Below, piece by piece: positions 3,001 through 47,538 of a stretch of DNA of 64,000 nucleotides (its first letter is position 1; every line of letters begins with the position of its first letter). The stretch is from Mesotaenium endlicherianum. Taxonomy: Eukaryota. The translations under genes and the position numbers were made by a program. The stretch lies in contig WELA01003449.1 in the NCBI GenBank assembly GCA_009602735.1, positions 720,692-784,691 on the forward strand, in the 5' to 3' direction. The notes under the pieces are model-generated. The model was given only the letters and a program-made list of their open reading frames with translations, was not told the origin of the DNA and ran no database searches.

Positions 3001-4835
3001 ACCATCAGCCACTTAAGTGGCTCATGACGTCGGAGCGCTTGACCGGCAAGTACGCACGGTGGGCGCTTATCTTGCAGGAGTACACCTTCGACGTGCACCA
3101 CCGTCCAGGCTCGACCAACCTGGACGCTGACGGTCTCAGCCGTAACCCGCTGCCCTCCTCGAGGGATCTCACTGTGGCTCGCCACGATGAGGATGAGCCG
3201 GTAGCCTGGCACGCGGCGGCCTTCCTGGCCTTCACCGTGGACGGCGATGTGCGGCCCGCAGGGCTCACTAGCCTGGACATGGTGACCGTCACCACTCGGC
3301 GATTGGCCCTGGCAGCGGCAGAGGATCAGGACAGCTGGCAGCGCGGTCCCGAGGACGTGTGGGACGACGCCCCAGTGCTGCAGTACGTCACGGCCAAGGA
3401 GTTGGCACCCGATGTCAGCGCACGCGAGCGCGACCGCATCCTCAGGCGCAGCCGCGACTTCATTTTCATGGAGGGGCGCGTGCGGCGCGTGATGGCGGAC
3501 GGCTCCGTCCTGGTGGTCCCTGAGCCTGCCATACGCAGTCAGCTGGTGCGCCGAGTGCACGAGTCCCTCGGGCACTTCGGTGTCAAGCGCACCCTCAGTC
3601 TTCTTCAGGCCGAGTACTGGTGGCACGGCATGACTAAGGTCGTCGCCGCTGTCGTCAGCAGCTGCACTCTCTGCGACCGTGTGCGCTCGAGCTTCACAGC
3701 GCGCACCGTTGCCCTCAGCCCCCTTCCTATTCAGGGGCTGTTCTACAGGTGGTCGCTTGACTTGGCTGGAGAGCTGCCCAAGTCTCGCCAGGGCAACCTC
3801 TACGTCTTGGTGATGATTGAGCACATGTCCAAGTGGATCGAGCTCGTGCCCTTGCCCAGCAAGGCCAGTGAGGGGATCGCTCAGGCCTTCCTCAATCAGG
3901 TCCTTAGCCGTTTTGGCGGCTGCGCTGAGGTGCTGACCGACCAGGGCAAGGAGTTCCAGGGCAGCTTTCAGAAGCTGCTGGAGCGCTCTATGATCGACCA
4001 CCGCACCACCTCCCGCGATCATCCTCAGGCTGACGGCCTCGCCGAGCGCATGGTGCAGACCGTCAAGCTAGGGTTGCGGAAGTACTGCCTTGCCCACGAC
4101 CGTACCCACTGGGACGACGCCCTCCCTTGGCTGGCGATGGGGTACAGGTTCAGTAAGCAGGCCTCCCTGGCCTCTCACTCTCCCTACTTCCTTCTCTACG
4201 GCCGACAGCCCATCCTGCCAGCAGCAGCCAGGACTGTGGCCGAGAACGTCTTGGACTTGGACAGTCCCGAGACATGGAGTGCTCTTATCGGGCAGCGTGC
4301 TCAGCTCTTTCGGCGCCTGATGCCCATGGCCATGGATAACCTCAGCATCGCACAGCATCGCGACACACTGAGGTACGCCATGACTCGTGGAGGAGCCTAT
4401 CATCCGCGGGTGTTGCAGTTTTCCGCAGGTGACTTCGTGTACCTGCGACGCCAGACGAAGAACACCCTCGACACCAGCAGCTCGCCGGTCATCCTGCGCG
4501 TCAAGCGTGCCTTGGCGTCAGGAGTCCTGGAGCTGGAAGGCGCAGATGGCCGTCTTCACAAGGACCACACGAAGAACTGTGGGCCGTGCCACCTTCCTAA
4601 CCTTGACTTGCAGGTCCGTCCCCGCGACGCGCGGCCGCCCAAGGACTGGGCGTGCCAGATCTGTCACAGCACTGGCCAGGAGGCCAAGATGCTGCTTTGC
4701 GACAGCTGCAACCTCGGCTTCCACATCGGCTGCCTCGACCCGCCGCTGGCCCGCGTGCCCGCTGACGACTGGTTCTGCGAAGACTGCACCGAGCTAGCCT
4801 TGAGCAGCGTACACAGCCCATCAGCTAGAGGCTGA
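21..4835 (+). CDS. Retrotransposon polyprotein: C5-cytosine DNA methyltransferase (~327-1280), Pro/Ala/Gln linker, reverse transcriptase, RNase H, HHCC + DDE integrase, PHD finger (~4650-4790); frame is open to the window edge, so 5'-partial
   Basis: DNMT motifs ELFAGIA (I), DIRNI (III), GWECQGFS (IV), LENV (VI), HRVRAYF (VIII), EMERAMGF (IX), LLGQAID (X); RT RMCGDYRRLN, MPFGLKNAP, YIDD; RNase H TDWS..GLGAVL, TDHQPL; INT HESLGH..CTLC, LTDQGKEF, QADGLAERM; PHD C4-H-C3 CQIC..LLCDSCNLGFHIGCL..WFCEDC. Confidence 0.95.
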   Translation: MASARRQARAVSPTALQDARLRWRTHQDHARGERPQPLTDRIPNLTRDYANRAVAALRMAPHQHSAERTFPPPAQPGTPAVGCRPLPTPICADALDERPGGIVLVELFAGIATGLLATLQAGIPVRRYVYVDPDPEAQQVARRQMALGHERFPDLQPAHAFRRAQTDWPMDIRNITVEHVTRLGPVDLVIAGWECQGFSRAGRGRALSDPRTALFWHLLRVLNIVEDRQPPHTLAWVLENVAARHDRRPDVSADFALCSSYVGREAVIDAAQIGSFAHRVRAYFTNLAMPGTLEALAASHPRHTRTVDSILDAPRLAQRVTALPHPSMAQCEVLHDVTRALPTFVSRYDSDAFVGDQRGMVIDLETGMFDKPRPAEMERAMGFLPHLTQVDGLTEVNRIRLLGQAIDANVLTWILLQTQALAPLYAAARHPELPRPVDDMDDDSTDDDNQTPPGTTWHPQRAGPAPPERTRPPSPPPRGEDSGSLGGGRRREESSQRPRESQSPFLFPRSQADDCSQADGARQLAATATVQVPAAGQAPTAAGQVTPAAPQSIPAANQETPAAGQATPPAPPTWKLGGTLTKAQAAQLTALLDGRRSTSFASGMHDLGRYRGDPMRITLSSQEPIFLKRYRYSHFEDGLISAQTGKLEDSRLIRESSSRYAAPTVMPAKKDASGNWSEKRMCGDYRRLNEVTEQDRYPMPTPDEIFDDIGTCTWFSVLDLRQGFNQIPIAEEDQHKTAFWGAQRLYEWVVMPFGLKNAPATFQRVMDKELVGLSFARCYIDDVLVFSQTFEEHVVHITTVLDRLEAAGLKCHPGKCTFGTREVEYLGHLLSSSGLAPQLAKISAITGIPPPTDLSQLRAFLGIANYYRRFVPGFSELAKPLNDLLRKGVAYVWGPEQQAAFDKLKELLVSAPVLRRPDYAKPFILHTDWSQAGLGAVLVQEHDGFEHVVAYASRSNNRAEGNYGSYEGECLAAVWAIVHFRHYLYGTHFRLVTDHQPLKWLMTSERLTGKYARWALILQEYTFDVHHRPGSTNLDADGLSRNPLPSSRDLTVARHDEDEPVAWHAAAFLAFTVDGDVRPAGLTSLDMVTVTTRRLALAAAEDQDSWQRGPEDVWDDAPVLQYVTAKELAPDVSARERDRILRRSRDFIFMEGRVRRVMADGSVLVVPEPAIRSQLVRRVHESLGHFGVKRTLSLLQAEYWWHGMTKVVAAVVSSCTLCDRVRSSFTARTVALSPLPIQGLFYRWSLDLAGELPKSRQGNLYVLVMIEHMSKWIELVPLPSKASEGIAQAFLNQVLSRFGGCAEVLTDQGKEFQGSFQKLLERSMIDHRTTSRDHPQADGLAERMVQTVKLGLRKYCLAHDRTHWDDALPWLAMGYRFSKQASLASHSPYFLLYGRQPILPAAARTVAENVLDLDSPETWSALIGQRAQLFRRLMPMAMDNLSIAQHRDTLRYAMTRGGAYHPRVLQFSAGDFVYLRRQTKNTLDTSSSPVILRVKRALASGVLELEGADGRLHKDHTKNCGPCHLPNLDLQVRPRDARPPKDWACQICHSTGQEAKMLLCDSCNLGFHIGCLDPPLARVPADDWFCEDCTELALSSVHSPSARG

Positions 4836-22673: not shown

Positions 22674-25365
22674 TTATTCCTCAGGAGCGGCGAGTTCTAA
22701 AGCTTTCTGCTTTTCCCTTCTCTCCTCCAAGACTACAGCTTTGTGACTCAACCGAAGCTGACCCTTCATATTAATCTGCAAGAACAAAAGCAGTGGCGTC
22801 AGGACGAGCAGGCCAGACAACACTCGTGACCCACCACAGGCAACATCAAGGCCAGCATGAAGACGGGGAAGCCAAAGAGCAGTCCTTGGTTGCGGCTCTC
22901 TATGCAGCAACAATGATGCAATGGTACCGGCACACCAGCAGTACATAACACGTGTCAGCGTCGAGTGTCAAACATGGCCTCACCTCTAGGAGCTTGACGT
23001 CCAAGCGATCTCCCTCCTTGGTAAACTGCTCAGAAATCGAATGCAGAAACAGAACACCACAGCATAAGAGGACCACACCCTCACAAAATGCCTGTCCTCG
23101 TTCCAAGTCCTTGTGGTCCTCAAGTGGGCGGATGCAGAGAAACTCCCGGCATCGTGGTAGAAGCCAGGAGAGATGCAGGCGTTCCTTTCAACCAGATCCA
23201 CGTCGATCAAATCGACTGCTTCACGTGAAGCGGACAGTTTGCTGTAGCCAGTGCGCTTCTCGCGTGCAGCAGAGACAGGCCCCCTGCATTCCCGTCCGTC
23301 ATGCCACCAGAGCAGAGGGAGTGGCAAGGTCCGGATGTTCCCAGCAAAAGCTCGTGAAGCTCAGGTCAATCCATGAAAAGCACCACACAGGCAGCGTGAG
23401 CGAGAATGAAATGGACTTACATCTTCCACCTTGTCTATTCTGGCTGTGGTGAACTCGCTGACGTGCACCAGACCCTGCAGCAAGCAACAAGCCATAGTGA
23501 ATCTTGCAGCATTAGTTCCGGTTGCAGAATCCAATGGTGACGACAACTGTGCCCGGCGCAGGAGGAGGGAGGGAGGGGAGGAGGGAGGGAGGGGAGGAGA
23601 AAGGAGGGAGGGAGGGAGGTGAATGCTTCTTGAATGGCTGAGCTGCACAGGAGGAGCTGGGTGCAGGCATCAATGACATATTCCCCCTCAAGACGCCAGA
23701 CTCATGTAAGCCCTCAGTGCTGCTATCCCCAGGAGCTGAAGACTAGCCCATACATGGTAGCGCTAGATATCGGGCCGTCTTTCTGGAACGCACTCTATCC
23801 TTAAGGTGCATCTTCCAGCACCCAGATTCAGCTCGCCAGCAGACAATAGCTTTGCTGTCTGCAAAGGGGTCTCTAGCTTCAGAAGAGAAGGTGGGACGCA
23901 GATGAAAGCAGCACAGAAGGTACAACAGCAGCGCAAGACATCTGGAGAAGCGTCTTGCATGGGCTGAGCCGCGTGCTGTGCGAGTCACTCACCTCTTTGC
24001 CCGGCGCAATCTCCACAAAGGCCCCAAACGTCGTGATGTTCTTCACCAAGCAATTTCTGCCACAAACGATTGTAAAGGGGGGGGACACGGAAGGGTGGAA
24101 GGNNNNNNNNNNNNNNNNNNNNNNNNNNNNNNNNNNNNNNNNNNNNNNGGGGGGGGGAGAAAATAAGCATGTTAGAAACGTACGTTGGGGCCTCAGCCTC
24201 TCCATACCCAGCAGCTAGCTGCTACCCTGCTAGTCTCTGATCTCTGCCCCAAGCAGCTGCCTTACGCAAGGCCACGTGTGCACCTTCTGCGTCCTCAAAA
24301 TTGTGACAGCATCACCTGTGAAAGCTGCTGACAGCGTGTACCGCAACTTGCTCGGCATACTGACTGCCTCGTGTGCATCTTGCAAGCACTCCTCGTACAC
24401 CCACGCGCACGCGCACGTGCGCACCCAGTTCCCGACAACTGACGGAGGGCGTGACGTGACCCTCTCACCTGTAGATCTTGCCGACTTGCGGCGTCATGGT
24501 GATGCCCTCAATGCGCGCGCACGCCTTGTCCAGCCCCTCCTTCGTCTTGGACACCACTTTCACCTGCAACCCCCCCGCGAGCACCCAACCGTCAGAACAA
24601 GACTTCCCGGCTCCACCCACATTTGGCTCGTGGGCCATCGTGACCGCAGCTGCTCTCTTGGTGAAGAGACTCTGCAAAGGCACAAGCCTCTATGGCTTCA
24701 GATTAGGGCATATTGGAGGAGTTTAGGATAGCTATTTCACATTTCAGCTTTCCAGAGAGGGTTTAGTCGAAAAGCGCGGCTCTGACGCACTCCTCCCCGG
24801 CCAGCTCACTGACTGCACCACTGGATGCACTGCATCACTTGCAGCACAAGCCGCTGGAAGGAGGAGCATTCCCTCAATCTCTTGCTTCATCGATACCACT
24901 CCAACTCCTCCTCGTTTTCAGTGACTTCCCCATCGTGGAGAACAATGTAGCCCGGCTGCCCCGGGCACTTGCTGACTAGCAGACCAATCATTGCTGAACG
25001 TGCATGCCCATAGGAGAGGCATGGAGGGAACCCAGAGGAGGAGGAGGAGGAGGAAGAGGAGAAGGAAGATGGAGCCGGGGGTGAAGGGGGGGGGTAGGGG
25101 AGGGGCTGACAATGCCGTCATCCTCGATGTCCACGCTCTCCACTCCGCAGTCCTCCACGATGGCCTTGATGGTCTTGCCGCCACTTCCGATCACGGCCGC
25201 CACTTTGTCCGTATCCACCTGCAGCGCCACCACCGAGTCAGCAGCAGTCCATGCCTTGGTGCTCATTCTTTTCCTGGGAACTGGCGTGGTGTGCACGAGC
25301 AGCGGCTGAGCATCCATGCAGGTGGTGACGAAGATTCCTTCCTCTTGCCTGTGCATGTGCATGTG

Positions 25366-25401
<36 letters not shown>

Positions 25402-26547
25402 TGCACGATACAAGCCGACAGATGTCTGGTGCAAAGGGAGCCATGCCTTGGACTGCATCTTCAGGAGATTGTGGAGCGGGGACCCGCAAAAGGAATGCAA
25501 ACACCTCAGCCTCCCACTATCCACTTCTCACCCATCTTTCCAAGCTGCTACGAGCGTCACACGCGCGAAGGAAGCACGGCAGTGGCAGTGACGGAGGCAG
25601 AGGCGGCTGCTGCTGCAAGCCCTTGAAATTGCGGCACGCGTGACCAGTCTGCTTGGCCCCAGTCCGAACCTGCCACCGCAGAAGGCAGCCCCCGAAAGCC
25701 GACAACACGAGGTTGATTGGCCTGCAGGACCATCATCCCACGCTGGCTGGATAGGTGATCGTACCTTAATGAGCCTGATCAGAGGTGCATAGACCGACAG
25801 CTGCTGAGCCGGAGCCGGCCAGCACTTGGCCATTTCACCTGCCACCACCGGCGCAGCCGCACGTGTCAGGAGCGACGCGCCGGAGGGAGTGCGGCAGGAC
25901 GAGAGACGCACTTGCACAGGCGGTGTGATTCCTAGCAGCTGTGCGTGCACTCAGGAGGCCGCATCTTCCGCAAGCCTTTCCGCATCCGCCCGTCACCTCT
26001 GCGCACATAACTGGCTGCTACAGCAGAGGGCAGGCCAGGGCAGGCCAGGCCAGGGCAGGGCAGGGTAAGGGGGAAGTGTTAAAAACACACCCACTCGCAC
26101 GCACTCACACACATCTGCACACACGCCACACGCACCTAGGATGTGGCAGCGTCCAGCCTTGGCCTGAGCCAGCGCCTTCTCCATCACCGCGATGGTGATG
26201 CCCTCCACCTGGCACCTCCCGGTCCCCGCAAGCCTGTGTGAGCTCAAGCCCCAAGTGTGACCGTCCTACTCTCCCTCTGTCTCTCCCTCGTGTTCTGTGC
26301 GCGTAGGACACCTGCGTTTCCCCCAAACGGCCTTGAGTGCTCGGTGCCCCAGAGGGCTGAGCTGAATTCCAGGGGCGGCAGCAGGGCCAGCTAGGGAGGG
26401 GTGCAGCTCTAAGGAGCGCAAGACAACAGGCCCGCCACGCCTCGGTCCGACTTTCATGGAGGAAGCAAGCAGGTGCATTGCATGCTGTCGCAAGGAGCAA
26501 TCCTCAAATCAGCGAAGTGAGGGATGCGAGCATAATGGCTGTAGGAG

Positions 26548-26587
<40 letters not shown>

Positions 26588-28050
26588 GCACCTTGATGTC
26601 CATCTGGAAAGCTGTGACTCCATCCTCAGTGCCCGCCACCTGGCACCACAGAGAGCTCAAGGGCGTCAGCACAGAAGGCATCAATTAGCGGAAGCAACTG
26701 CAAGAGGCTGTTCTCCAACGGCCCTCCCTCATTCTCCTCCAGAGAAAAGCAGCATCAGCCCCTTTCCTCTCTCCCCGCCCTGAAAATGGTGCTCGATCAG
26801 TAAAGGCGACGAAAAGACAGCCCACCAGGTCAGTAACACCGGCGACTGACTCAAAACTCCACCATAGCGAGCTAACCAGCAGGCAAGCCCACAAGCCCGC
26901 AAGTCCCTCCCACAAGCCTCCCTCCCTTTATACCTCCCTCCCCCACTACGGTTGGCCAGAAGAGGAGGAGGAGAAACAGGCAGGCAGGCACGCAGGCAGG
27001 CAGTAGGCAGGCAGTCAGGCAGGAGGCAAGAGGGCAGGAGGCGGGCAGGGGGAGGTGGTGGTGGAAGAGAGGCAGCAACCTTGAAGTCCATGTCGCCGAG
27101 GGCGTCTTCGGAGCCCAGAATGTCGCTCAGGATGAGGGGCTCGCCGGACCCACCGCACGCGGCCGTGTCCAGGATGAGGCCCATGGCCACGCCCGCCACG
27201 GGCCCCCGCAGGGGCACGCCCGCGTCCATCAGCGCCAGGCACCCCCCGCACACTGACGCCATGCTGCTCGCCCCTCCACCCAGCACTATGAGTGTGAGTA
27301 TAGCTGTGAGGAAAGGCTCGGCTCCCCACACCCCCCCCCCCNNNNNNNNNNNNNNNNNNNNNNNNNNNNNNNNNNNNNNNNNNNNNNNNNNNNNNNNNNN
27401 NNNNNNNNNNNNNNNNNNNNNNNNNNNNNNNNNNNNNNCCCCCCCCCCCCCCCCCTCCCCGCCCTCATCTCTCGCGGCAGCTGCTGGTGCTTCCACAGCT
27501 TGTCCATGTCCCGTTAAAGGGGTCCGTGTTGGGACAGCAACAGACGGGCATGGTGAGTTTCCCGCGTCTTTGTCGTCGTTCGATTTGCGGGGTGCACGCT
27601 GTGACAGCATCAGATGGGATGCACGCGCGCGCCTGGCGCCAATGGAGTCGGCAGATCTGCTACGCCAGACCGAATGGGGTTTCAGGTGGGGAGGAAGTAA
27701 GAGGTTGGAATGAGCAAGCAAGGGAGCGCGCTGCCTGCTCTCGCCAGGCTGTGGAGGGGGCAGGTGCAGGCCTGCTGAGCCAGCTGCCGCTGGGCCAGAC
27801 ACGCCTGCACGCATGAGCGCATCTGTAGACCTGCTTGCGTAGACATCCCAAGTTTGCACCTGCTGCTTTTTCCTCCCTCGGGACGTGACACCCGCTTCTC
27901 AAGGCACGTGTTCACTCTGACGTGATGCCGTCGGACAACCGGCCAGGCCAGGGACGGGGCGCGCAACACATGCGTACGCATACATGCGCAGACACACGTA
28001 TGCGCGCGCACTTGTGTACACACACACACACGCGCGCACACACACACATA

Positions 28051-28082
<32 letters not shown>

Positions 28083-29118
28083 TGCACGCACGCACACACC
28101 CGCGTGCGCGTGTACGCAGACAAAAGTACGCACCTGGAGGAGCCGTTGGACTCGGTGATGGTGCTCTCGAGGCGGATGGTGTAGGGGAACAGCTCCGCGT
28201 CCGGCAGCATGGGCTCGATGGAGCGCTCCGCCAGAGTCCCGTGCCCAATCTCCCGCCGGCTGGGCCCCCCCGTGCGTCCCGTCTCCCCCACTGACGACGG
28301 CGGGAACGAATACTGCACGCCGGACGCCAGGGAGGGACACAAGCCTTGGCGCTGAGTCAGCATCGCGGCACAAGCCAAGTGGGCCTCATACTTGGACCCC
28401 AGACTTGCCCACACTTCTGCAAGGGGAAGAAAGAGCACAGAGAAAGCCCCACGGCTTGTCCCCGCCATCCTCTCCCTACCTGTCCCAGCTCGCCCTAAGC
28501 AGGTACTTCTAGGCATGCCATCCCTCCCTCCTTTCCTCGCATCAACAGCACGAGGAGCACAATATTTGGATGCAGACCAGTGCAAAGTGAGGGGCTTAAA
28601 CCGCTTAACCCCATGTCACGTGCGCGGAACCGTTTGTTGGTGCTGGGGCAAGTGCGGGCGCATCATGGGCATGGCAGCCACACGGAGCGCACCCGGCCAC
28701 CAGTACATTTGCCAGGGCATTGTTCGTGATCAGCGAGTCGCGCATGACGAGCAAGTGCCAACGAGGGAGGCGAGAGGCGATGCGCACGCACGCGGCGGCA
28801 AGCTGATTGGCGGGCAGGCAGGCAGGCAGGCAAGCAGGCAGGCAGGCAGGCAGGTAGGCAGCGGAGGAGGAGGACGAGGAGGAGGAGGAGGAGAGAGGGA
28901 GCGGGCGAGTGCAGCAAGCGAGCAAGCGTGCGAGGAGCGTGCGCCTGCCTGGAGGTAGAAGCGCTTGGAGTCGCGGCTCTCGTTGGCGAGCGAGTCCGTG
29001 CGCTGCCCCATCTCCGTGCCGCCCAGGGTCGCCACCGCCAACGCCTGCTCCCTTGCACATGCGTTGCAGCAACAGCGGCACGTGCGACACCACGCACAGG
29101 ATGCATCAACTCACACAT

Positions 29119-29149
<31 letters not shown>

Positions 29150-32100
29150 AACGCACGCGCGCATGCACGCCCCCGCACACACATATACACACCAACTGCG
29201 GGAGGCAGTGGGGCTGCCCATCTTCCTCGACAATCCCTTACGCTCCCTCTGCTCCCTCTGCTCTCAGAGAAGCAGCTCCTGGACGTTCCTGCAGCTGCTG
29301 CTCTGTATGAGGCCTGCTGCTGCAGATGCCGCAGCCTCAGTCTCTTTCCCCCGCCAGCACCAGCTTTGTGGCCTTGAGCAACACTATGCCTCAATCTTCT
29401 TCAGAGCGCAAGCTTGCCAGACAAGAGGTGCAAGAGTAGGCCAAAGAGGGAACTGCGCTAGGGCCGGGAGAACAGAGGCTGAGACCGCCATCCGGCGCGG
29501 AGGCAGCTGGAGGGCACCAGCAGCTTGTGCTGCTGCTGCTGGGGCCCATTCCAACTGCGACCAGCAAAAAGACGGGCAGTGGGCAGACAGCTGGCAGATA
29601 GAGGAGCCCCGACATGTGCAAGTGTTGCAGGCCCCCGGGGCCTCGCCTCCCTGGAGGCAACAGGAGCTCGAAGCCAGCCGCACCTGTGTCTCCCCGCGGG
29701 TGAAGAGAGCGCTGCCATGTGTCCTTGGCAGGATGCTGCAGGATGCCTCGATCTGACGGATGTCAGTGGGCCCTCTCCCGTCGCTCCTCACCCCCTCCTG
29801 CAACACCCATTTGCGCGCGAGGCACCGCCCAGATGAGAGTATGAAGAGCGGCACAGCACGGGCACGCAGCTTCAGGGCGGCCAAATGCGGGGAGCACATG
29901 TGAGTTCCTGCCTCTGCTTCCCAGCCCTCTGGGCAGCAGGAGACTGACTCCATACCCTTTGCCGGACTGTCTGCTAGTCTCACGGAGACGAGCCCAGAGC
30001 CTGAAGAAGATGTGAGGCTGAGGCACGGAGATGAGATCGTGTAGGGAGGCAGAGGCTTAGGCTGGCTGCGTCTGCATTCTTCCAGAGGGGCCAGGGGAGC
30101 TGCCTCTTTGGAGGAGGAAGAAGGGCCGCACGCCTCGCTGCTCACGGGAGCGGGCATCGTGGGTGTTACGTTTTCCAGACGGCAGGATGAGCTCCGGCGG
30201 CAGCATGGACGCAGAGCACTCCTGCGAGCACACACTTGGAGCAGCAAGAGGGCAGAGGGCAGAGGGCTGAGGGCAGAGGGCAGCTGGAGCCCACCTGCAC
30301 TACAAGGCGGCGCATGGTGAGCGACGAAAGCTCCTTGTACGCCCTCTTGATGTCCGCTGCCTCGTACATCTGCCACGTGTCACCAGGCACGCACGCACGC
30401 ACGCACGGCCCCATCAGCACCCGCACATGGGGCTGCAGGGACTTCCTGGGAAGCAATGCTTTCCGCTTTCCGACCACCCCACCATGGACACCAGATGCAC
30501 TTGTGCACTTTGGCTTCCTCAGCTGCTCTGAGCGCACCAGAGTCCGCTCTGGACCAGTCGCCACCTGGCAGCTAGTCCTGGGAGAGCATGGCGTGCGCGT
30601 AAACTTTATACCCCCCAGGAAGCAGAAATGAGAGGGCAAATGCAGTCGCTCATAGGATTCCTCCTCCAAGGAGGTGGGACAAAGAAAAAGCACTTTCTCC
30701 ACGTCCAACATTTGCCTGTTGTGTGCCTCCCCTCCCCCCCCCNNNNNNNNNNNNNNNNNNNNNNNNNNNNNNNNNNNNNNNNNNNNNNNNNNNNNNNNNN
30801 NNNNNNNNNNNNNNNNNNNNNNNNNNNNNNNNNNNNNNNNNNNNNNNNNNNNNNNNNNNNNNNNNNNNNNNNNNNNNNNNNNNNNNNNNNNNNNNNNNNN
30901 NNNNNNNNNNNNNNNNNNNNNNNNNNNNNNNNNNNNNNNNNNNNNNNNNNNNNNNNNNNNNNNNNNNNNNNNNNNNNNNNNNNNNNNNNNNNNNNNNNNN
31001 NNNNNNNNNNNNNNNNNNNNNNNNNNNNNNNNNNNNNNNNNNNNNNNNNNNNNNNNNNNNNNNNNNNNNNNNNNNNNNNNNNNNNNNNNNNNNNNNNNNN
31101 NNNNNNNNNNNNNNNNNNNNNNNNNNNNNNNNNNNNNNNNNNNNNNNNNNNNNNNNNNNNNNNNNNNNNNNNNNNNNNNNNNNNNNNNNNNNNNNNNNNN
31201 NNNNNNNNNNNNNNNNNNNNNNNNNNNNNNNNNNNNNNNNNNNNNNNNNNNNNNNNNNNNNNNNNNNNNNNNNNNNNNNNNNNNNNNNNNNNNNNNNNNN
31301 NNNNNNNNNNNNNNNNNNNNNNNNNNNNNNNNNNNNNNNNCCCCCCCCCCCCGCCTCCCCGACTAGGCAACCCGTCCTTGCCAGGCTGAAGGAGCGCCTT
31401 GCCTGCAGATCCGGAAGAGGATAAAAGAGCCCGGAGATAAAACAGCACACACACATGCACTCGCTCACATGACACACGCACTCGCGCACAGATACACATG
31501 CACGCGCACGTCCTGAGCACACACACAGACAGGCAGGCGGGCACATGCATACTGCAAGCGGGGCCGCAGGGGCAGGGCGCCGCGGATGATCGGGGCGCAC
31601 GTGCACCTCGCCCTCGTCCACATCGCCGTTCTCTACCACGCCCTCCTCCTCCTTGTCCCACTCCTCCTCCTCTGCCTCCACCTGTCGCCGCCCCAGCCCA
31701 GCCCCAGGAGCTGTCCGGATGTGGGTCATCAGAGCGCCTGTCAGCTCTCTCTCCTTCTCCTTCCACATGGCAGCACACACTGCCCCCCCCCCCTCGGCCC
31801 CCCTCTCACCGAGGGGGGGGGGGCATGCATGCCACGCAAATCCAGGTGGCAGTGTCTTCCATGAGTAGGAGGACAAGTGGGAGGGGCAGGGGGGGCAGGG
31901 CTTTGTCAGGCATGCTAGCAGTGTTCGTGGGTGACCACTGGTCAACAGCAATCTGGGCGGTATTGTCAGCAGCGAGCGTGGCGGCCACTTGCCAGCTCCG
32001 CACATGCAGCTGTTGCGATGCTCGTGCCCCCACACTGCCCTGCCCATGCTGGTCTTAGCCCGCTCCAGAGACTCCTCCCCACGTGCCCTCACTAAGTCTT

Positions 32101-33355
32101 ACAGCAGTGACCAGTAATCACTACTCCTTCCAGCCCCCAATCCCCACCCCCAGCCGCCCTATTCAGGCTACAGCCCTAAACCCAGCCCCAAGCCCTTGCC
32201 CTAAACCTTGGGCGTCCTTCCGTGGGCTGCAACTGCTCCCTGTGGCTTCTCCACCTTCCACCTCCAGCAAGAAGAAGAACGAGAGGAAAGGAAGGAGAAG
32301 GAGAGAGGGTACCGCACAGGGACCACAAAAGGAGGGAGACTATGAGGGGGTTGTGGGTTGGGGGGGNNNNNNNNNNNNNNNNNNNNNNNNNNNNNNNNNN
32401 NNNNNNNNGGGGGGGGGGGGCGGGGAGGGAGAGGAGGGCACCTTGTGCTTAAGGGAAGCAGCAGCAGCTGCAGCCAGCTGCTGGCCCTCTGCGGTGAGGG
32501 CGGCCATCAGACGCTGCTCCATCAGTATGCCAGCTGCCCCCCTCTCCTTCTTGCTGCGCAGACGCAGCGTCTTCTCGAGGTCATCGCCCAGCACCTCCTG
32601 CACTCGCTGCGCCAGATCGCCAGGTGGCGTCCGGACAGCTCCCCCTTGCTTGGGCTTCCCGACCACGGCCGCCCACTCCGTGAGCGCCAGGCACGTCCTC
32701 CTGATAGCCACCTGTTGCACAGAAGCGCGCACGTGCGAAGGGAGGGGGTTGGAGAGGGACGGAGCTGTTGGCCTTTGCTTCTAACAGGGCTGGGCGGGTG
32801 CTGCACTGCTGCTGCTGCGGCTGCTGCTGGTGATGGTGCAGCGCTCGGCACAGAGGCCCCATGGGTTTAGCGGGGCGAGAAGAAGGCACGCGGATGATTG
32901 GTCAGTCAGAGAGAGAAAAGGGAGAGCACTCTATGCAACAGGCAGCGGCATAGCGGAGCAGAGCAGGCTAGACAGCGTTCGCGGTGAGAGTACGGGTAGG
33001 TAAGTGCACTGGGGGGCCCTTATGTGCGCGTGATATCGAGAAGGACAGTAACCCAGGGGGCTGACCGGGCATCCCTCCTACGACACCAAGGCAAAGGCGA
33101 GCCCTGAGTGCCCACACTTGATAGGCTAGTGAGAATGACAAGCACGATCACGCCGCTGGGGACGGGCGGCGGCAGCGGCGGTGGCAGAACCTCCTCGAGG
33201 GGGTGTGCTGGGAGAGTACACAAATGAGGAAGAAAGGTAGGGCGAAGGGGGGGGGGGGAGAGAGAGAAGAGTGCAGTAGCGGGCCTTACGTGGCCGGCGT
33301 CCACAGCCTCCAGGAGCTTCTCCTCCGTCAGCAGGTTGCAGTATCCCTGCCCCAG

Positions 33356-33390
<35 letters not shown>

Positions 33391-33519
33391 AACACACACG
33401 CGCGCGCGCGCGCGCGCGCACAAACCACCGTCATGGGCGTCAGAAGTGAACACACTGGCTTTGCAGGACATGCCTCCGTACGTATGCACACGCGTGCCGA
33501 GTCGCACAACCACAAAGTT

Positions 33520-33554
<35 letters not shown>

Positions 33555-36500
33555 GGGCACACAGCTCTGCCATTCAGAGTTGCTGAGCGACGCTCATCGT
33601 GGTGCGCATGCAGCCGCGCAAGTTTCAGCTGGGGACCCTTCATGCCGTCCCCGCCCAATGACAGCACTCGCTGGCCTGCTGCTGCTGCTGCTGCTGCTGC
33701 TGCAGAGCACATTCAAAGCAGCCCATGCCGTGCTGCATACTAATCTCGTCGTTCCCCAGATCAAGAGCTCCTGCTGCTAGTCAGGCCTGGGCCATCTAAA
33801 GAAGGAAGGCCCACACCCTAACTCGGCATCGACACCCTAATGCACGCCACGCGGAGCTTAACAGGACAAGTTAGTGTCCAGGTGGCGTGCCCGTGATGTC
33901 TGTCGCGAACCTATATGAGGCACTACAGTCCAAAGACCCGACAACCCCCGGCCCCACTGGCTGCGCTGGCACTACTATACGCTGACACCCTTTGAGCATC
34001 ACCGCCAGCCCCAGCACTAGACCAGCACTAGACCACCAGCAGCAGCAGCAGCAGCAGCAGGACAGATGAAGTGGCAAAAGCCTATTTTTCAGGGGGGGGG
34101 GAGGAGAGGGGGAGCAGGGGTGATGAAGGTCTTATGAAGAAGGTAAATGGTGGGCTAGCAAGCTAGAGGAAGCGCCGGCCCTTCCCGGTGTTTCATGTCC
34201 GCTCTTCTCGGCTCAGTTGCCCACACGGCCCCCGCTCCGAAGGGTCTCGGCTGACATCGCGACAGCGTGACGGAGCAACACCTACCATGCAAGAGCGTTG
34301 CAGACATAGGCAACCATACACTTTGAACAAGCACATGCATGTATGCACTTTCACATAGAACGCGTTCTTTTAGTGACACGTGGTGTATGCAGTCTAAACT
34401 GCAGAGCTCATACGACACACGGCCGGCGTGCGTGGACGCGTGCACACCTCGATCATGAGAACGGCGTCAGCCGTGCCTGCTATGGTCATGTCCAGAGGGC
34501 TCTGCTCCATGTCAGCAACCGTGGGCCCCACCACGAAGTGGCCGTCTCTGAGGCCCACCTTCACGCCGGCTATGCTCTTCGTTAGCGGGATGTCCGACAC
34601 AGCCCTGCACAGTTGCATTGCGAATAGAGGGGGGAGGAGCGAGGAATGGATGAGCACAGGGGGAAGAAGGCATCAAATAGGCCCCCTAGAGAGGTCGCAG
34701 GGGGACTCCCCCCTACCAGTGCACGAGTAGACTGGGCAGAGGAGATGGAGGGACGAGGGAGCGATGAGTCAGCAAAGGAGGAGGAGGAGGAGGAGGAAGA
34801 GGGGGGGCGCCATGGCCTGACTAAGAAGAGGGATGCACCCTAGAGGCTCAGGGGAGCCACCTCGCCCACTTTCCTCTGCTCTGGCTCAATAGAGGAAGGG
34901 AGGGAGGGAGGGAGGGAGGGAGGGAGGCAGAGATGCACGTGACCTTCTCAGGTGGTGGAACCCACACACAGGATGGAGATAAGGCAGGGCATGTGTGTGT
35001 GTGTGTGTGTGTGTGATAGATAGATAGATGGATAGACAGAGAGAGAGAGGGGAGGGGGCAGGGGGGANNNNNNNNNNNNNNNNNNNNNNNNNNNNNNNNN
35101 NNNNNNNNNNNNNNNNNNNNNNNNNNNNNNNNNNNNNNNNNNNNNNNNNNNNNNNNNNNNNNNNNNNNNNNNNNNNNNNNNNNNNNNNNNNNNNNNNNNN
35201 NNNNNNNNNNNNNNNNNNNNNNNNNNNNNNNNNNNNNNNNNNNNNNNNGGGAGGGGGGGGGAGGGTGGGTGGAGGAGGGAGTGTGAGCATGTGAACTCAC
35301 CTCGTGGTCGCGAGGGCGGCCCTCTCTCTTGATGAAGCCACCCCTGCAACCCAGAGGGAGCCAGCGCCCCCTCAGGATTCACCCCCTCCTGCCCTGCCCT
35401 GCCCTGCCCTTGACCCCACGATGTGGCCAAGGGGGGCCAAGCACACATTGCCTCTCCCAATTCAAGTAGCGGTAGAACCAGGGCGCATCCACATCCCAGA
35501 GGGACCCCACAGGCAGCGCCTCACACACACAGTGAGTGACAGCCATGAGGGCTGCCAGGGGCTCGTCTCTGTGGCCAGCTGCGGTGGGGGTCAGAAAGCA
35601 GGCGAGGCCAGGTGTCGCAGCCACGAGCCACGGGCTTGTGACACGTGCCAGGATGAAGAGGCAGCAGCGCTGGTGTGGCCCTACGTGGCTCTCTGATGTT
35701 GCATGCAAGGCCACGCGAGCATTGGCACGCAAACACACTGCGTGCAATCCTCACGGTGCTAGCAGCACCACGGGGAGGGAGCAGCCACTTGCCATTAGTG
35801 GGTGTCACACAAGCACACTGGTGTCAAAGAAGCAGGCGAGATGGATTGCCGACTACGGAAGGGCAGTACCCCCCATGATCGCCGGACGAAAGCTGAGAGA
35901 GGCAGGCAGAGGCTATGAGCACAGCCCAGTCTCCTTGTGCATTACTGAGGGGCGCTTTTGAGAAAGGGGCACACTCGTGCGCCCACCATGTGCACGTGCA
36001 TGCGGATGGCAAGCATGCAGTCCCACAGTTCCAGTCACGCAGAGAGAGAGAGAGGGAGCCTCAGGGTGCGACTCCGAGCACGTCACACAGATGGGAGGCC
36101 TGAGCCCTGCTGGCCCCGTGCTCTCGAGACGCCCAAAGAAAGCAGAGAAGAGAGAACAGAGAAGAGGAGGGACTGGGGCGAGGAAGAAGGGGGGGGGGAG
36201 GGGGGGGAGGGGGGTTGGGGGGGTACGCGGTGCGGCCGGCGGCGCTGAAGCGCTCCTGGTACATCACTTGTAGCGGCAGAAAGTCGGAGGGCTCACCCAA
36301 GTCCGGCTCCGAGCACGCCGTCGCGTACACCACCTGCAGGTGTGGGGCATTGCCCCGCTCTCGCATGCATCAGGCGTCAGGCATCGGGCGTCAGGCACCA
36401 GGCTGAGCCGGCGACAGAGTGACAGGGTTCAGGTTTCTGCAATTTGGGCCCCGGCCTAAACCCCGACCGCTCCTAGGATGGAAGGACTTACGCTCGTTGA

Positions 36501-38568: not shown

Positions 38569-39946
<1,378 letters not shown>

Positions 39947-39996
39947 GAATACTGCACAGTCCCTTTTGAGGCTCCTGTTGAGCTAAACAACCAACT

Positions 39997-40012
39997 GGTG
40001 TATTTTTACACC
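39997..40012 (+). terminator. Histone mRNA 3' stem-loop (SLBP-type processing signal)
   Basis: CCAACT-GGTGTA-TTTT-TACACC-ACCAA: 6-bp GG..CC stem, 4-nt U loop, ACCA 3' flank, 50 nt after the H3 stop. Confidence 0.8.
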
Positions 40013-40130
40013 ACCAATGATCAGGACTCAATCATCTCTGGCTGCTCCTTGCTAGGATGTGACCTTACTTGGTATAGTTCGCACTCTCCTACTTGCACTT
40101 CCAACAAGCACTACCATTTAAGCCTTGGTC

Positions 40131-40290
40131 TGACATCTGGTGGGGGAACTAAGGGGGGTGACATTCGAGGAAGCTTGGGTCTAGGAATCATGAGAACATG
40201 CCTGTTATTTAGACTAACATCTGGTAGGGGAACTGAGGGGGTTGACATTTGAGGAAGCTCGGGTCTAGGAATCATGAGTACATGCCTATT
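40131..40290. repeat. Tandem duplication, 84-bp period, 2 copies
   Basis: ACATCTGGTRGGGGAACT...GGTCTAGGAATCATGAG at 40133 and 40217. Confidence 0.85.
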
Positions 40291-41956
40291 TTGGGGACAC
40301 TAAGAATGCTCACTGGGCACCAAAGCCAATCCAGGTTTATGTATCTAGAAGCTAAAGGAGCTTCAGAGCGCCCAGCCATGATATGAAGGTTTACCCATAG
40401 GATGTACATCTAGCAACCACCAGTGTCTTCTTGGCTCAGCGTTTCTCACGAGTATGTAGGTGGCACTATTTTATAACTTACACAATCAACGCTCGTCCAG
40501 CATTATCGAGGTACTGTGTAAAGACAATGTTCTCCATGGTGGCAGACACTTGGCAGGCCTCTAAGAACCAGAACGTGTACTTTAAGATTACGTAGTTCAC
40601 TGTGGCTAGGTGATCAGACCATAGTTACAAATCAAGTGTCTCAATCGCACTATGGAAAGTTGAGATTTTTCTGGACTGGAGTTTGCTTAAGCCGCCATTT
40701 CTTACAAGGAGTTATGCTAGATAGCGTAAGAGGTCAAAGTATACTAGGAACAAGGAGCAATAAAGACTTTGATATGCATAAATGGACATTATTTGGTTAA
40801 GCATTAGAGGTCACATTTTTTATAGTCATTGTGGTTTTCTGCTTGCATTATGCCTTGTGTTTTTATAGTCCAATTCACTTTTGACTAGTGCAAAACAAAA
40901 ACTTGTGCAAACAAATTGATTCAAAATATAGAGATGCTACATGGCTACATGGCTTGAGCCTCTTGAGTGATTACTTGAGAAGTTGGTGAGCTAAATATAA
41001 TCAAAGGCATCGCAAGTGACAAAATCAGTTTTCAAGATCTGGCTCAACACATTGATGTGGATGTCTTGTTGTGGGCTTGATGCCAATACTAAGGACCCCA
41101 GAGACTCATGTAATTTTCATCTGGACATGAGCAACAACTATGCATAAAGAATGAACTTTTATGCTTTAAGAATGTACTAATACTTGTTAGTGGATCCACA
41201 GCTGAGATTGTGAACACGTGCCCTGTACTGGAATGGTAATGACCTGCGTAGGCAGTTCAATGGGCTACATCCCTAGCATCTTCATAGCAGTTGGATATGC
41301 ACTTCCATCTTCCAATTCTTTGGCGAAGCTCATGCCTTAAACTGTGTGTTGGTGTTCATGGTCTTTTACTTATTTATACGAAATAAATTACCACTACGTT
41401 TAAAACAATTAACATCATTATATCATAATCATTCTGGAAGTAAAGAATTTGTTTGCATATGCAGTCAAAAGTGTACTTCTTATGACAAGACTATATATGT
41501 GACACACAACATAGATAGATGGTAAGTTAATAGTAATAGACCTATAAGCAACACTAAAAGGAGGTTCACTTTACGGCTTACAGAAAGTCCGGCAGCACTT
41601 CGCAATGTCTCAAACCTGGATCCTTGCAATCGCCATCAGTTTTTGCAAGGGTGCTAGAAGAGGTGCCTCATGAGTATCACTTTAGATTGTCCCTTTCATG
41701 GTACACTTTAATCGGCCAGATTTTGCGAACCTGACCGTCCACAGAGTGTAAGAACTAGACTAGCCCCTGCTGTCAGTCGCATATCAATCAACTCATGTTG
41801 GTAAATACCAGCCACTGGCCAGTCTTGTACCACAGTTAATGAAATTGGATGTGCATTATCTTTGCAGCGTGTCCTTACAAAAACAAAAGTGCAATGGCAG
41901 AGATCAAAACCAATTGTAGCACCAAAAACATCAAGGGAGGATAGTGATATACAAGC

Positions 41957-46387
<4,431 letters not shown>

Positions 46388-47538
46388 GGTGGCAAATGTT
46401 TGTTGACTTGGCCAGAAGCCTACACTGATAATTTACTTTCAGAAAATGCTGCCTCGGATCTGCTTCGCAAGAGTGTAACTGTCCTTTTGACCATCGAGGG
46501 ACAATTCTAGGCAGTCTCATATCCACACGAAATTGCGCTTTGCATTTCAGCATCCCGTCATTGCTGTCACTTGCTGCTTGAGCCTCGGGCTGATTAGTGG
46601 AGATCGACTTAAAAAGGATTTGTTTTTTTCCCGAAGATGAAACTGCTGTCGTGCCCAGGTCATGCCTATATCAAGCCTCTGCTCAAGGGGACTAAGTCAC
46701 ACGTGCTGCCATCCAAAATCCATGGCAAGTCAGCGGTCAACTCCGACTTTAAACTTGTGTTAACCAGTGTTAACACTTCTTCCACGTTCCATCTGCTTGC
46801 ATCGACGAGCCTTCTAATCACTTCTAATGGCCGTTTACTCGTGGCCATTCGGCCAGGCTTTTATTCTTCACACAAAGTGACTTCGAATTTAACCATGACG
46901 CCAATACAATGGACGGCTCCCATCGGCTGCCGTTTATATCCAGCCTCTATATTAGGGCCAAAAAAGGGCTAGACATTTAACTTCCGCTTTAATTGTTTTT
47001 CTCGAGGGGCACCTCGACTTCAAACATGATGGTCATATGTAATTTTTCCTCATCCTTCACCTCTTTCTCCCGTCTTCCTGATCACTCTCAATCCCTCCAT
47101 TGACCCCACTCCTCTCTCCCTTAACCCGCCCTTTCCTATTCCTCTTCCCTCTCACAACAAATCCCTCATCACAATCGACCACCTCTCCCTCTCTTTTCCT
47201 CCCACTTTCAAAAAGACACACATCTTATCCGCCCCCACCACCTTGTCCACTTCCAAATTTGTGTTCATACACGGCGTCAATGCTCCCTACAGTAGTGGTG
47301 TCATACTTTCAATGAAACCCCACAACATGCTCTTACAATGCGAAGAGTTGGTTCTCGCTGTGAAGTCACAACAAGCGTTAACATATATGTACACCACATG
47401 TGGCTCCAAGCGAAGCTAACTTGTAAGAAGTGAAGAATGTACACCACCTAGTTTTGCAACTAAAGAAGGACCTACATCACCTGAATCACGACAGAGGACA
47501 CTTGTTCAAGACTGCCCTATCAAGAAAAGACAGCTATG

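What the first reader, a model, noticed from the sequence alone, without database searches (positions are those of the whole stretch)
39991..40017. Canonical histone 3' stem-loop on an intron-containing H3 in a streptophyte-like genome
Seen: CCAACT GGTGTA TTTT TACACC ACCAA, 50 nt after the stop, with 6-bp stem, 4-nt loop, GG/CC base, U-rich loop and ACCA tail. Established: this SLBP-bound hairpin ends non-polyadenylated replication-dependent histone mRNAs in animals and occurs in chlorophytes and various protists, whereas land-plant histone mRNAs are polyadenylated without it; animal stem-loop histone genes lack introns. Inference: SLBP-type processing persists in this lineage close to land plants, helping date its loss, and coexists with splicing. 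No obvious purine-rich U7-type downstream element is visible, hinting at a different cleavage mechanism.
Basis: partly seen in the sequence, partly recalled or inferred. Interest (0 to 1): 0.75.

Follow-up and report, generated by a model that had tools for sequence, protein, structure and literature searches.

The report
Plant-type histone hairpin on algal H3
A histone H3 gene of a green alga from the group closest to land plants carries the same small RNA hairpin already described on moss, fern and cycad histone messages; it likely marks the end of a tail-less message made during DNA replication, although the transcripts visible in public data are spliced and run about 750 bases past it.

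Summary
The hairpin is real: stem 39997-40012, 50 nt after the stop of an intact H3 gene whose 113-nt intron is spliced in RNA reads. A neighbouring gene matches Mesotaenium endlicherianum (Zygnematophyceae). The motif is the plant-type histone stem-loop: 14 of 27 hairpins of poly(A)-less cycad histone genes differ from it only at the top pair. Rfam RF00032 does not hit. The protein has the canonical H3.1A signature despite its intron. In six RNA-seq runs, probably all poly(A)-selected, coverage continues through the hairpin to ends near 40758 and 40787. A hairpin-ended form was neither seen nor testable. No Zygnematophyceae SLBP was identified (inconclusive). Best reading: a mainly hairpin-ended S-phase mRNA plus polyadenylated read-through, as in moss (0.55). 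The scan found similar cases before in moss, chytrid and diatom DNA. Verdict: new member of a known kind. Side lead: small CRESS-type DNA virus contigs carry the same hairpin just after their genes.

The parts
39342..39422 (+). 5' untranslated region (approximate start)
   Evidence: 5' end of transcript contig of run X1 at 39342; stranded reads place the RNA on +
39423..39544 (+). H3 coding exon 1 (codons 1-40 plus two bases); A31
   Evidence: translation
39545..39657 (+). 113-nt phase-2 GT..AG intron in the Arg40 codon
   Evidence: junction 'skips 113, GT..AG' in X10, X11, X16, X17 reads and X1, X2 contigs
39658..39946 (+). H3 coding exon 2 with stop; Y41, S87, L90 (H3.1A signature), V124
   Evidence: Pfam Histone PF00125 E=2.8e-43; signature from PMC4357034
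39980..39996 (+). A/C-rich single-stranded 5' flank of the hairpin
   Evidence: sequence; unpaired in folds except the last base
39997..40012 (+). plant-type histone stem-loop, GGUGUA UUUU UACACC (6-bp stem, 4-nt loop, A-U top pair)
   Evidence: match to cycad poly(A)-less histone hairpins in Table S9 of PMC13130582
40013..40017 (+). ACCAA tail; predicted 3' end of a tail-less mRNA (not observed)
   Evidence: sequence; cleavage five nt after the stem in animals (bioRxiv 10.64898/2026.10.14.759114 passage); no molecule ends listed here
40018..40787 (+). transcribed extension past the hairpin: long 3' UTR of the read-through form, ends near 40757-40758 and 40787
   Evidence: continuous depth in 6 of 6 raw runs; ends in X11 at 40757 (17), 40758 (10), 40787 (6); contig ends 40759 and 40789
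40125..40290 (+). two-copy 82-nt direct repeat (88% identical) inside the long 3' UTR
40759..40764 (+). AATAAA, 23 nt before the distal end at 40787; likely poly(A) signal

Best explanation
This is the ancestral green-plant histone mRNA stem-loop on a spliced, canonical-type (H3.1A) H3 gene, and the gene likely makes two kinds of message: a main S-phase mRNA predicted to be bound by SLBP and cut just after the ACCAA tail (about 40017) without a poly(A) tail, and a longer read-through form that is seen in RNA data and ends about 750 nt further on. Shown: hairpin, position, splicing, canonical-type protein signature, read-through RNA and its ends. Inferred: polyadenylation of the long form (from library type and ends), SLBP presence and binding, cleavage at the hairpin, S-phase control, and that the short form is the larger share.
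For: Motif identity with a functionally tested set: 23 of 27 cycad genes with at least 60% poly(A)-less reads share the lower five pairs GGUGU/ACACC, 0 of 14 mainly polyadenylated genes do, and 14 of 27 differ from this hairpin only at the top pair, which varies there as U-A 14, G-C 8, C-G 5 (my count of Table S9). The stop-to-stem distance of 50 nt lies in the 25-60 nt range quoted for animals. The protein carries A31 Y41 S87 L90, defined as canonical H3.1A of non-flowering plants. SLBP is present on both sides of this lineage: Klebsormidium, and mosses, a lycophyte, ferns and gymnosperms. Moss stem-loop genes also give polyadenylated reads: 0-46% in the 13 stem-loop rows among 20 rows seen. 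The long form is scarce in 5 of 6 runs (2.3-9.0x per Gb against 65.8x in X11); intron-spanning reads number 0-27 against a mean of 110-229 per junction for the neighbouring FBPase gene, which fits leakage from a gene whose main product escapes poly(A) selection.
Against: No hairpin-ended RNA was seen: depth before/after the hairpin is 0.39-1.93 across six runs, four of them below 1, and no molecule ends are listed near 40017. The long form has defined ends and a well-spaced AATAAA and reaches 70-148x in X11, so it is not mere noise. No SLBP labelled Mesotaenium or Closterium appeared in the best 120 of 275, the best 120 of 1467 or among 20 looked-up proteins, although both proteomes are in the collection. 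The A-U top pair occurs in 0 of 27 cycad hairpins. No purine-rich downstream box. RF00032 is not hit. If X13 or X16-X18 (labelled PCR and cDNA) were total-RNA libraries, the missing step would contradict this reading.
Confidence: 0.55

Rival explanations
1. The hairpin is functional but internal: the mRNA is always spliced and polyadenylated near 40758/40787, and SLBP (or a diverged binder) would sit on the hairpin inside the 3' UTR to control S-phase translation or decay, with no cut at the hairpin.
For: All RNA seen reads through with no step and has defined distal ends. No downstream purine box for U7-type cleavage. The hairpin is intact, which points to selection. The preprint proposes such a stem-loop-plus-poly(A) state for early fungi. 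The level varies 7- to 29-fold between X11 and the other runs.
Against: The libraries look poly(A)-selected (two labelled PolyA; FBPase intron depth is 1-2% of junction reads), so they cannot show a tail-less form. In moss, fern and cycad the same motif does mark poly(A)-less ends.
Confidence: 0.27
2. The hairpin is a relic: Zygnematophyceae would have lost or silenced SLBP, the gene gained an intron and switched to ordinary polyadenylation, and the motif has simply not decayed yet.
For: No Zygnematophyceae SLBP was identified. Cycas panzhihuaensis keeps SLBP unexpressed and polyadenylates its histone mRNAs, and SLBP was lost more than once in plants. The long UTR carries a tandem duplication, suggesting relaxed constraint there.
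Against: All six pairs, the U-rich loop, the ACC tail and the A/C-rich flank are intact, and the one difference from the cycad motif is a two-sided change that keeps pairing; decay would break pairs, as in the polyadenylated cycad genes. The SLBP searches list only top rows, many unnamed, and depend on gene models.
Confidence: 0.15
3. The hairpin is a chance palindrome in a 3' UTR.
For: Rfam RF00032 does not score it; loose hairpins of this shape arise in about 1% of 100-nt windows.
Against: 0 of 80,000 simulated windows met the strict pattern; it is the only such hairpin in 64 kb and lies 50 nt after a histone stop; it matches the cycad motif at 14 of 16 positions.
Confidence: 0.02

Closest known systems
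Stem-loops of poly(A)-less core histone mRNAs in Cycas debaoensis, Physcomitrium patens, Adiantum and Chlamydomonas, with plant SLBP (PMC13130582)
   Same: Same 16-nt motif (GGUGU-N, U-rich loop, N'-ACACC); canonical-type histone; polyadenylated side products are also reported there.
   Different: A-U top pair (0 of 27 cycad cases); a coding intron in H3 (that study removed intron-containing H3 genes before analysis); Zygnematophyceae were not among its 20 species; tail-less ends are not shown here.
Metazoan replication-dependent histone 3' stem-loop (Rfam RF00032 Histone3) with SLBP, U7 snRNP and HDE
   Same: 6-bp stem, 4-nt loop, G-C second pair, loop U3, ACC tail, about 50 nt from the stop.
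   Different: Stem sequence differs (about 7 of 16 positions match the animal consensus, recalled); RF00032 not hit; no purine-rich HDE; intron present; long read-through form well represented.
H3.1A, canonical H3 of non-flowering plants (PMC4357034)
   Same: A31 Y41 S87 L90 signature.
   Different: H3.1A was defined as intronless; this gene has one intron in the Arg40 codon.
Intron-containing stem-loop histone genes: Hydractinia H2A.X.1 (PMC5011920); Volvox carteri H3 (Muller and Schmitt 1988, recalled, not read)
   Same: Splicing and a 3' stem-loop on one histone gene.
   Different: Hydractinia's extra exon is non-coding and the gene is a variant; different lineage and motif.
Stem-loop plus poly(A) signal state of early-diverging fungi (bioRxiv 10.64898/2026.10.14.759114)
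   Same: Hairpin and downstream polyadenylation features on the same gene.
   Different: Here the motif is plant-type and the distal ends lie about 750 nt past the hairpin.

Membership tests
Plant/green-algal histone 3' stem-loop | 16-nt hairpin, 6-bp stem, 4-nt U-rich loop, GGUGU/ACACC lower stem, G-C second pair, loop U3 | tested here: met
   comparison with Table S9 of PMC13130582
Plant/green-algal histone 3' stem-loop | Lies shortly after the stop of a core histone gene of canonical type | tested here: met
   50 nt after the stop; A31 Y41 S87 L90
Plant/green-algal histone 3' stem-loop | Most mRNA ends at the hairpin without a poly(A) tail | tested here: inconclusive
   six runs show read-through only, but look poly(A)-selected
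Plant/green-algal histone 3' stem-loop | SLBP (PF15247) encoded in the same genome | tested here: inconclusive
   no whole genome held; no labelled Zygnematophyceae hit among listed rows
Plant/green-algal histone 3' stem-loop | Same motif behind the other core histone genes of the genome | not testable with these tools
   no other histone motif in the window; no genome
Metazoan Histone3 (RF00032)/U7 system | Scores with the RF00032 covariance model | tested here: not met
Metazoan Histone3 (RF00032)/U7 system | Purine-rich histone downstream element | tested here: not met
   2-7 purines per 10 nt over 40018-40067
Metazoan Histone3 (RF00032)/U7 system | U7 snRNA, LSM10 and LSM11 in the genome | not testable with these tools
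   no genome; the preprint reports LSM10/11 homologues in green algae and land plants
H3.1A (canonical H3 of non-flowering plants) | A31 Y41 (S/Q)87 L90 | tested here: met
H3.1A (canonical H3 of non-flowering plants) | Intronless gene | tested here: not met
   113-nt spliced intron; so described as H3.1A-type protein, not filed under the strict definition
Plant H3.3 (replacement variant) | T31 Y41 H87 L90 with introns | tested here: not met
   A31 and S87

The most novel reading that the evidence does not exclude
In the algal sister group of land plants the histone hairpin has been uncoupled from 3' end formation: canonical H3 mRNA is spliced and polyadenylated about 750 nt downstream, and the intact hairpin works as an internal cell-cycle control element, read by a strongly diverged SLBP or by another protein. 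Mesotaenium would then be a culturable intermediate between stem-loop-ended and polyadenylated histone mRNA in plants.
Probability: 0.25. Interest if true: 0.6.

Novelty: new member of a known kind. Interest (0 to 1): 0.3.

Why it matters
It fills the gap between Klebsormidium and mosses in the plant record of the histone stem-loop, in a lineage that neither 2026 survey names in its main text. It also shows that filtering out intron-containing H3 genes, as the plant poly(A) atlas did, discards canonical-type stem-loop genes. It does not date the loss of the system, which happened later and more than once inside land plants. If the read-through form proves to be the only form, Mesotaenium would be a tractable model for how plants moved from stem-loop to poly(A) ends.

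Tried and rejected
Rfam: no RF00032 hit in three scans; the only listed matches (CC0196, STAXI) are far below their gathering scores. The count of 920 'any perfect hairpins' is inflated by N runs and was not used. Whole genome: none held, so other histone genes, SLBP, LSM10/11 and U7 could not be searched directly. No other histone motif in the six frames of the window, so no H3-H4 pair as in Chlamydomonas. Upstream, no plant histone octamer and no E2F-like site was found; one reversed hexamer at 38971 and two CCAAT boxes are too weak to use. The look-up of sequencing runs listed no indexed holder on record as RNA; this was not used as evidence. SLBP motif scans of viral contigs found nothing; of prokaryote genomes nothing, then one chance match. 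The metagenome scan gave 119 loci, from which the moss-like query came. The SLBP tree (69 rows, 84 columns) left unnamed P0155 unplaced. The Atlas search returned only generic SLBP clusters. H3 loci from viral contigs: 0 of 66 had a convincing stem-loop, one weak hit 4 nt from a stop; uninformative for streptophytes. The roughly twofold drop after the hairpin in X16 (59 reads) was rejected as evidence because X17 and X18 of the same study go the other way. Depth in the coding region may be lowered by the tool's filter on human-like reads, which could hide a small step. H3.3 identity was rejected on residues 31 and 87. Paper searches for SLBP with Zygnematophyceae and for H3 variants with Mesotaenium returned nothing; none of the 40 listed of 153 papers contains SLBP.

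Full report
Observation. A perfect 6-bp stem (39997-40002 with 40007-40012) closes a TTTT loop, starts 50 nt after the H3 stop and is followed by ACCAA; it is the only GG..CC hairpin of this shape in the window. It folds at -9.0 kcal/mol, better than all 200 shuffles. None of 80,000 simulated 100-nt windows met the strict pattern and 722 met a loose one. Rfam RF00032 does not score it in three scans; the 2026 preprint notes that models trained on animal hairpins have limited sensitivity in plants.

Gene and organism. The H3 coding sequence is 39423-39544 plus 39658-39946, split by a 113-nt GT..AG intron in the Arg40 codon. The protein has A31, Y41, S87 and L90. PMC4357034 defines A31 Y41 (S/Q)87 L90 as H3.1A, the canonical H3 of non-flowering plants, and defines it as intronless (passages); PMC5809374 says F41 arose only in ferns (passages). 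So the protein is canonical-type, not H3.3, and the intron is the odd feature. No other histone motif lies in the window. An ORF at 14575-14991 matches a protein labelled jgi/Mesen1 ME000422S07130 at 97% identity over 99% of the query, far above all other hits; I read that label as Mesotaenium endlicherianum (Zygnematophyceae; the expansion of the label is recalled). No whole genome was held.

What the motif is. Table S9 of PMC13130582 lists 16-nt hairpins of Cycas debaoensis histone genes. By my count, 23 of 27 genes with at least 60% poly(A)-less reads share the lower stem GGUGU/ACACC and 0 of 14 mainly polyadenylated genes do. Fourteen of the 27 differ from this hairpin only at the top pair, which is U-A in 14, G-C in 8, C-G in 5 and A-U in none. 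The Mesotaenium hairpin is therefore the plant-type histone stem-loop with a fourth top pair that keeps pairing.

The premise. PMC13130582 (passages, sections 6 and 19, supplement 2 parts 1 and 29 and 30 table rows) reports poly(A)-less histone mRNAs, stem-loops and SLBP in Chlamydomonas, Physcomitrium, Adiantum and C. debaoensis, with loss in Selaginella and angiosperms. Its 20 species include no streptophyte alga, and it removed intron-containing H3 genes. bioRxiv 10.64898/2026.10.14.759114 (abstract, passages, Results parts 1-2 of 3, Discussion part 1 of 2, Methods section 21) finds SLBP in seed plants, mosses and algae, LSM10/11 in green algae and land plants, and stem-loops behind Klebsormidium H2A, H2B and H4 but not H3. 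Its main text does not mention Mesotaenium, Zygnem- or introns; its supplements were closed and may hold Zygnematophyceae entries. For stem-loop plus intron, Hydractinia H2A.X.1 has two exons and a stem-loop (PMC5011920, passages). PMC13525598 (passages) states the general rule that metazoan stem-loop histone mRNAs are intronless. That Volvox H3 genes have introns and stem-loops is recalled; the 1990 paper was not held and the 1988 paper was seen only as a reference. bioRxiv 10.1101/2021.09.19.460975 (passages) confirms tail-less histone mRNAs in Chlamydomonas and Volvox. Searches for SLBP with Zygnematophyceae and H3 variants with Mesotaenium found no paper; searches found no account of this gene.

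RNA. Eighteen runs were listed; I laid 6 of the 9 raw-read runs (three studies) and 2 of the 7 contig sets holding the stretch. The RNA is on the + strand, starts near 39342 and is spliced. Coverage continues through the hairpin in all six raw runs. Depth before/after the hairpin is 0.80 (X10), 0.59 (X11), 1.38 (X13), 1.93 (X16), 0.66 (X17) and 0.39 (X18). In X11 depth rises 70, 81, 126, 148 across the hairpin and UTR, and molecules end at 40757 (17), 40758 (10) and 40787 (6); contigs end at 40759 and 40789. An AATAAA lies 23 nt before the last end. No ends are listed near 40017. Poly(A) tails were not displayed; polyadenylation is inferred from the PolyA label of X10 and X11, the 3' rise and the ends. 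X13 and X16-X18 are labelled PCR and cDNA; intron depth of the neighbouring FBPase gene is about 2% of junction reads in X17 and X18 against 0.8% in X11, which looks like poly(A) selection but does not prove it. Such libraries cannot show a tail-less form. The long form is scarce in five runs (2.3-9.0x per Gb) and abundant in one (65.8x). In moss, the 13 stem-loop genes among the 20 table rows I saw give 0-46% polyadenylated reads, so read-through alone does not refute hairpin-ended processing.

SLBP. A motif scan of metagenomes gave 119 loci; three translated stretches checked were all PF15247. Searches with a moss-like domain (best 120 of 275) and a 12-sequence profile (best 120 of 1467; best 150 of 3941 unnamed) name SLBPs in Sphagnum, Ceratodon, Diphasiastrum, Ceratopteris, Adiantum, Taxus, Cryptomeria and Klebsormidium nitens; look-ups of 20 proteins added Pteridium and Psilotum. 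None was labelled Mesotaenium, Closterium, Chara or Marchantia. Mesotaenium and Closterium proteins are in the collection, so this is a weak point against the best reading, but only top rows were listed, many are unnamed, and searches covered proteins of 152-2000 residues only.

Mechanism. Most likely (0.55) the gene behaves like moss stem-loop genes: a main S-phase message bound by SLBP and cut after ACCAA, plus a polyadenylated read-through form. The intact pairs, tail and flank argue for continued selection. Rivals are an internal, still-bound hairpin on an always-polyadenylated message (0.27), a relic (0.15) and chance (0.02). The absent purine box is real but says little while U7 cannot be searched.

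Earlier notes of this scan describe a stem-loop on an intron-containing moss H3.3, on intron-containing chytrid H3/H4, and read-through past diatom hairpins. I did not test them and give them no weight as support; they suggest the combination is not rare.

Side lead. Scanning viral contigs for the plant-type motif gave 68 loci and 73 matches, none after a histone. Of 53 unique sites, 9 of 27 with a perfect stem lie in non-coding DNA within 100 nt of a stop against 0 of 26 imperfect ones (Fisher p = 0.002) and 0 of 30 sites with a control loop. Four 2.0-3.5 kb contigs combine the hairpin 13-31 nt after a gene with a Rep domain and a nonanucleotide in a stem. One paper search showed no report of this among 15 of 29 listings.

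Verdict. Real feature, known kind, new lineage, with a small twist (canonical-type H3, coding intron, well-represented read-through form). Interest 0.3.

Noticed in passing
L013:737(+), L015:690(-), L035:453(-), L062:1201(+), L059:1201(+), L012:1219(-); also L298 (animal-like hairpin): Small (2-4 kb) CRESS-type DNA virus contigs carry the plant/algal histone stem-loop with ACC tail 13-36 nt after the stop of the Rep or capsid-like gene. Rep domain in L013, L015, L035, L062 (E 1e-13 or better) and weakly L059; nonanucleotide in a stem in four. Perfect-stem sites are enriched after stops (9 of 27 vs 0 of 26 imperfect, 0 of 30 control-loop sites). Possible mimicry of host histone mRNA ends to use SLBP in S phase; not seen in one paper search or in the scan's notes. 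Possibly more novel than the finding itself.
   Followed up: partly
L030-L033 (one 30-kb contig, 4 copies), L002 (2 copies), L003, L065, L022, L020: Larger viral contigs, some labelled giant-virus bins, carry the same perfect hairpin 15-93 nt after open reading frames with no Pfam match.
   Followed up: partly
window 40125-40290 (+): Two-copy 82-nt direct repeat, 88% identical, inside the long H3 3' UTR; it explains the 'goes back 84' joint in X11.
   Followed up: yes
window 39352-40787: The read-through H3 RNA is 7- to 29-fold higher per Gb in run X11 than in five other runs, including X10 of the same study; cell-cycle or stress dependence is untested.
   Followed up: no
window 39793-39795 (H3 residue 124 region, exon 2; approximate: motif [10 protein letters not shown] near 39890-39925): The H3 has Val at residue 124 (KDVQL) where Ile is usual (recalled); effect unknown.
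   Followed up: no
window about 41670-46390 (-): Convergent, well-expressed, intron-rich gene that reads as cytosolic fructose-1,6-bisphosphatase (by eye); nine main junctions confirmed and a minor alternative acceptor at 44364. No overlap with the H3 UTR.
   Followed up: partly
P0280, P0313: The lycophyte Diphasiastrum complanatum has SLBP domains, so the loss reported for Selaginella does not cover all lycophytes.
   Followed up: no
P0155: Unnamed SLBP on a 21.5-kb contig with the upstream motif shared by moss and cycad SLBPs, but outside the moss, fern and gymnosperm groups in the tree; candidate streptophyte SLBP of unknown lineage.
   Followed up: partly
window 375-4797: GC-rich block with long overlapping frames and a PHD-like cysteine motif near 4384-4797, probably a retrotransposon remnant (by eye).
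   Followed up: no
window about 24900-34000 (-): Fragments reading as a chloroplast polyribonucleotide phosphorylase gene, broken by N gaps and microsatellite-rich introns (by eye).
   Followed up: no
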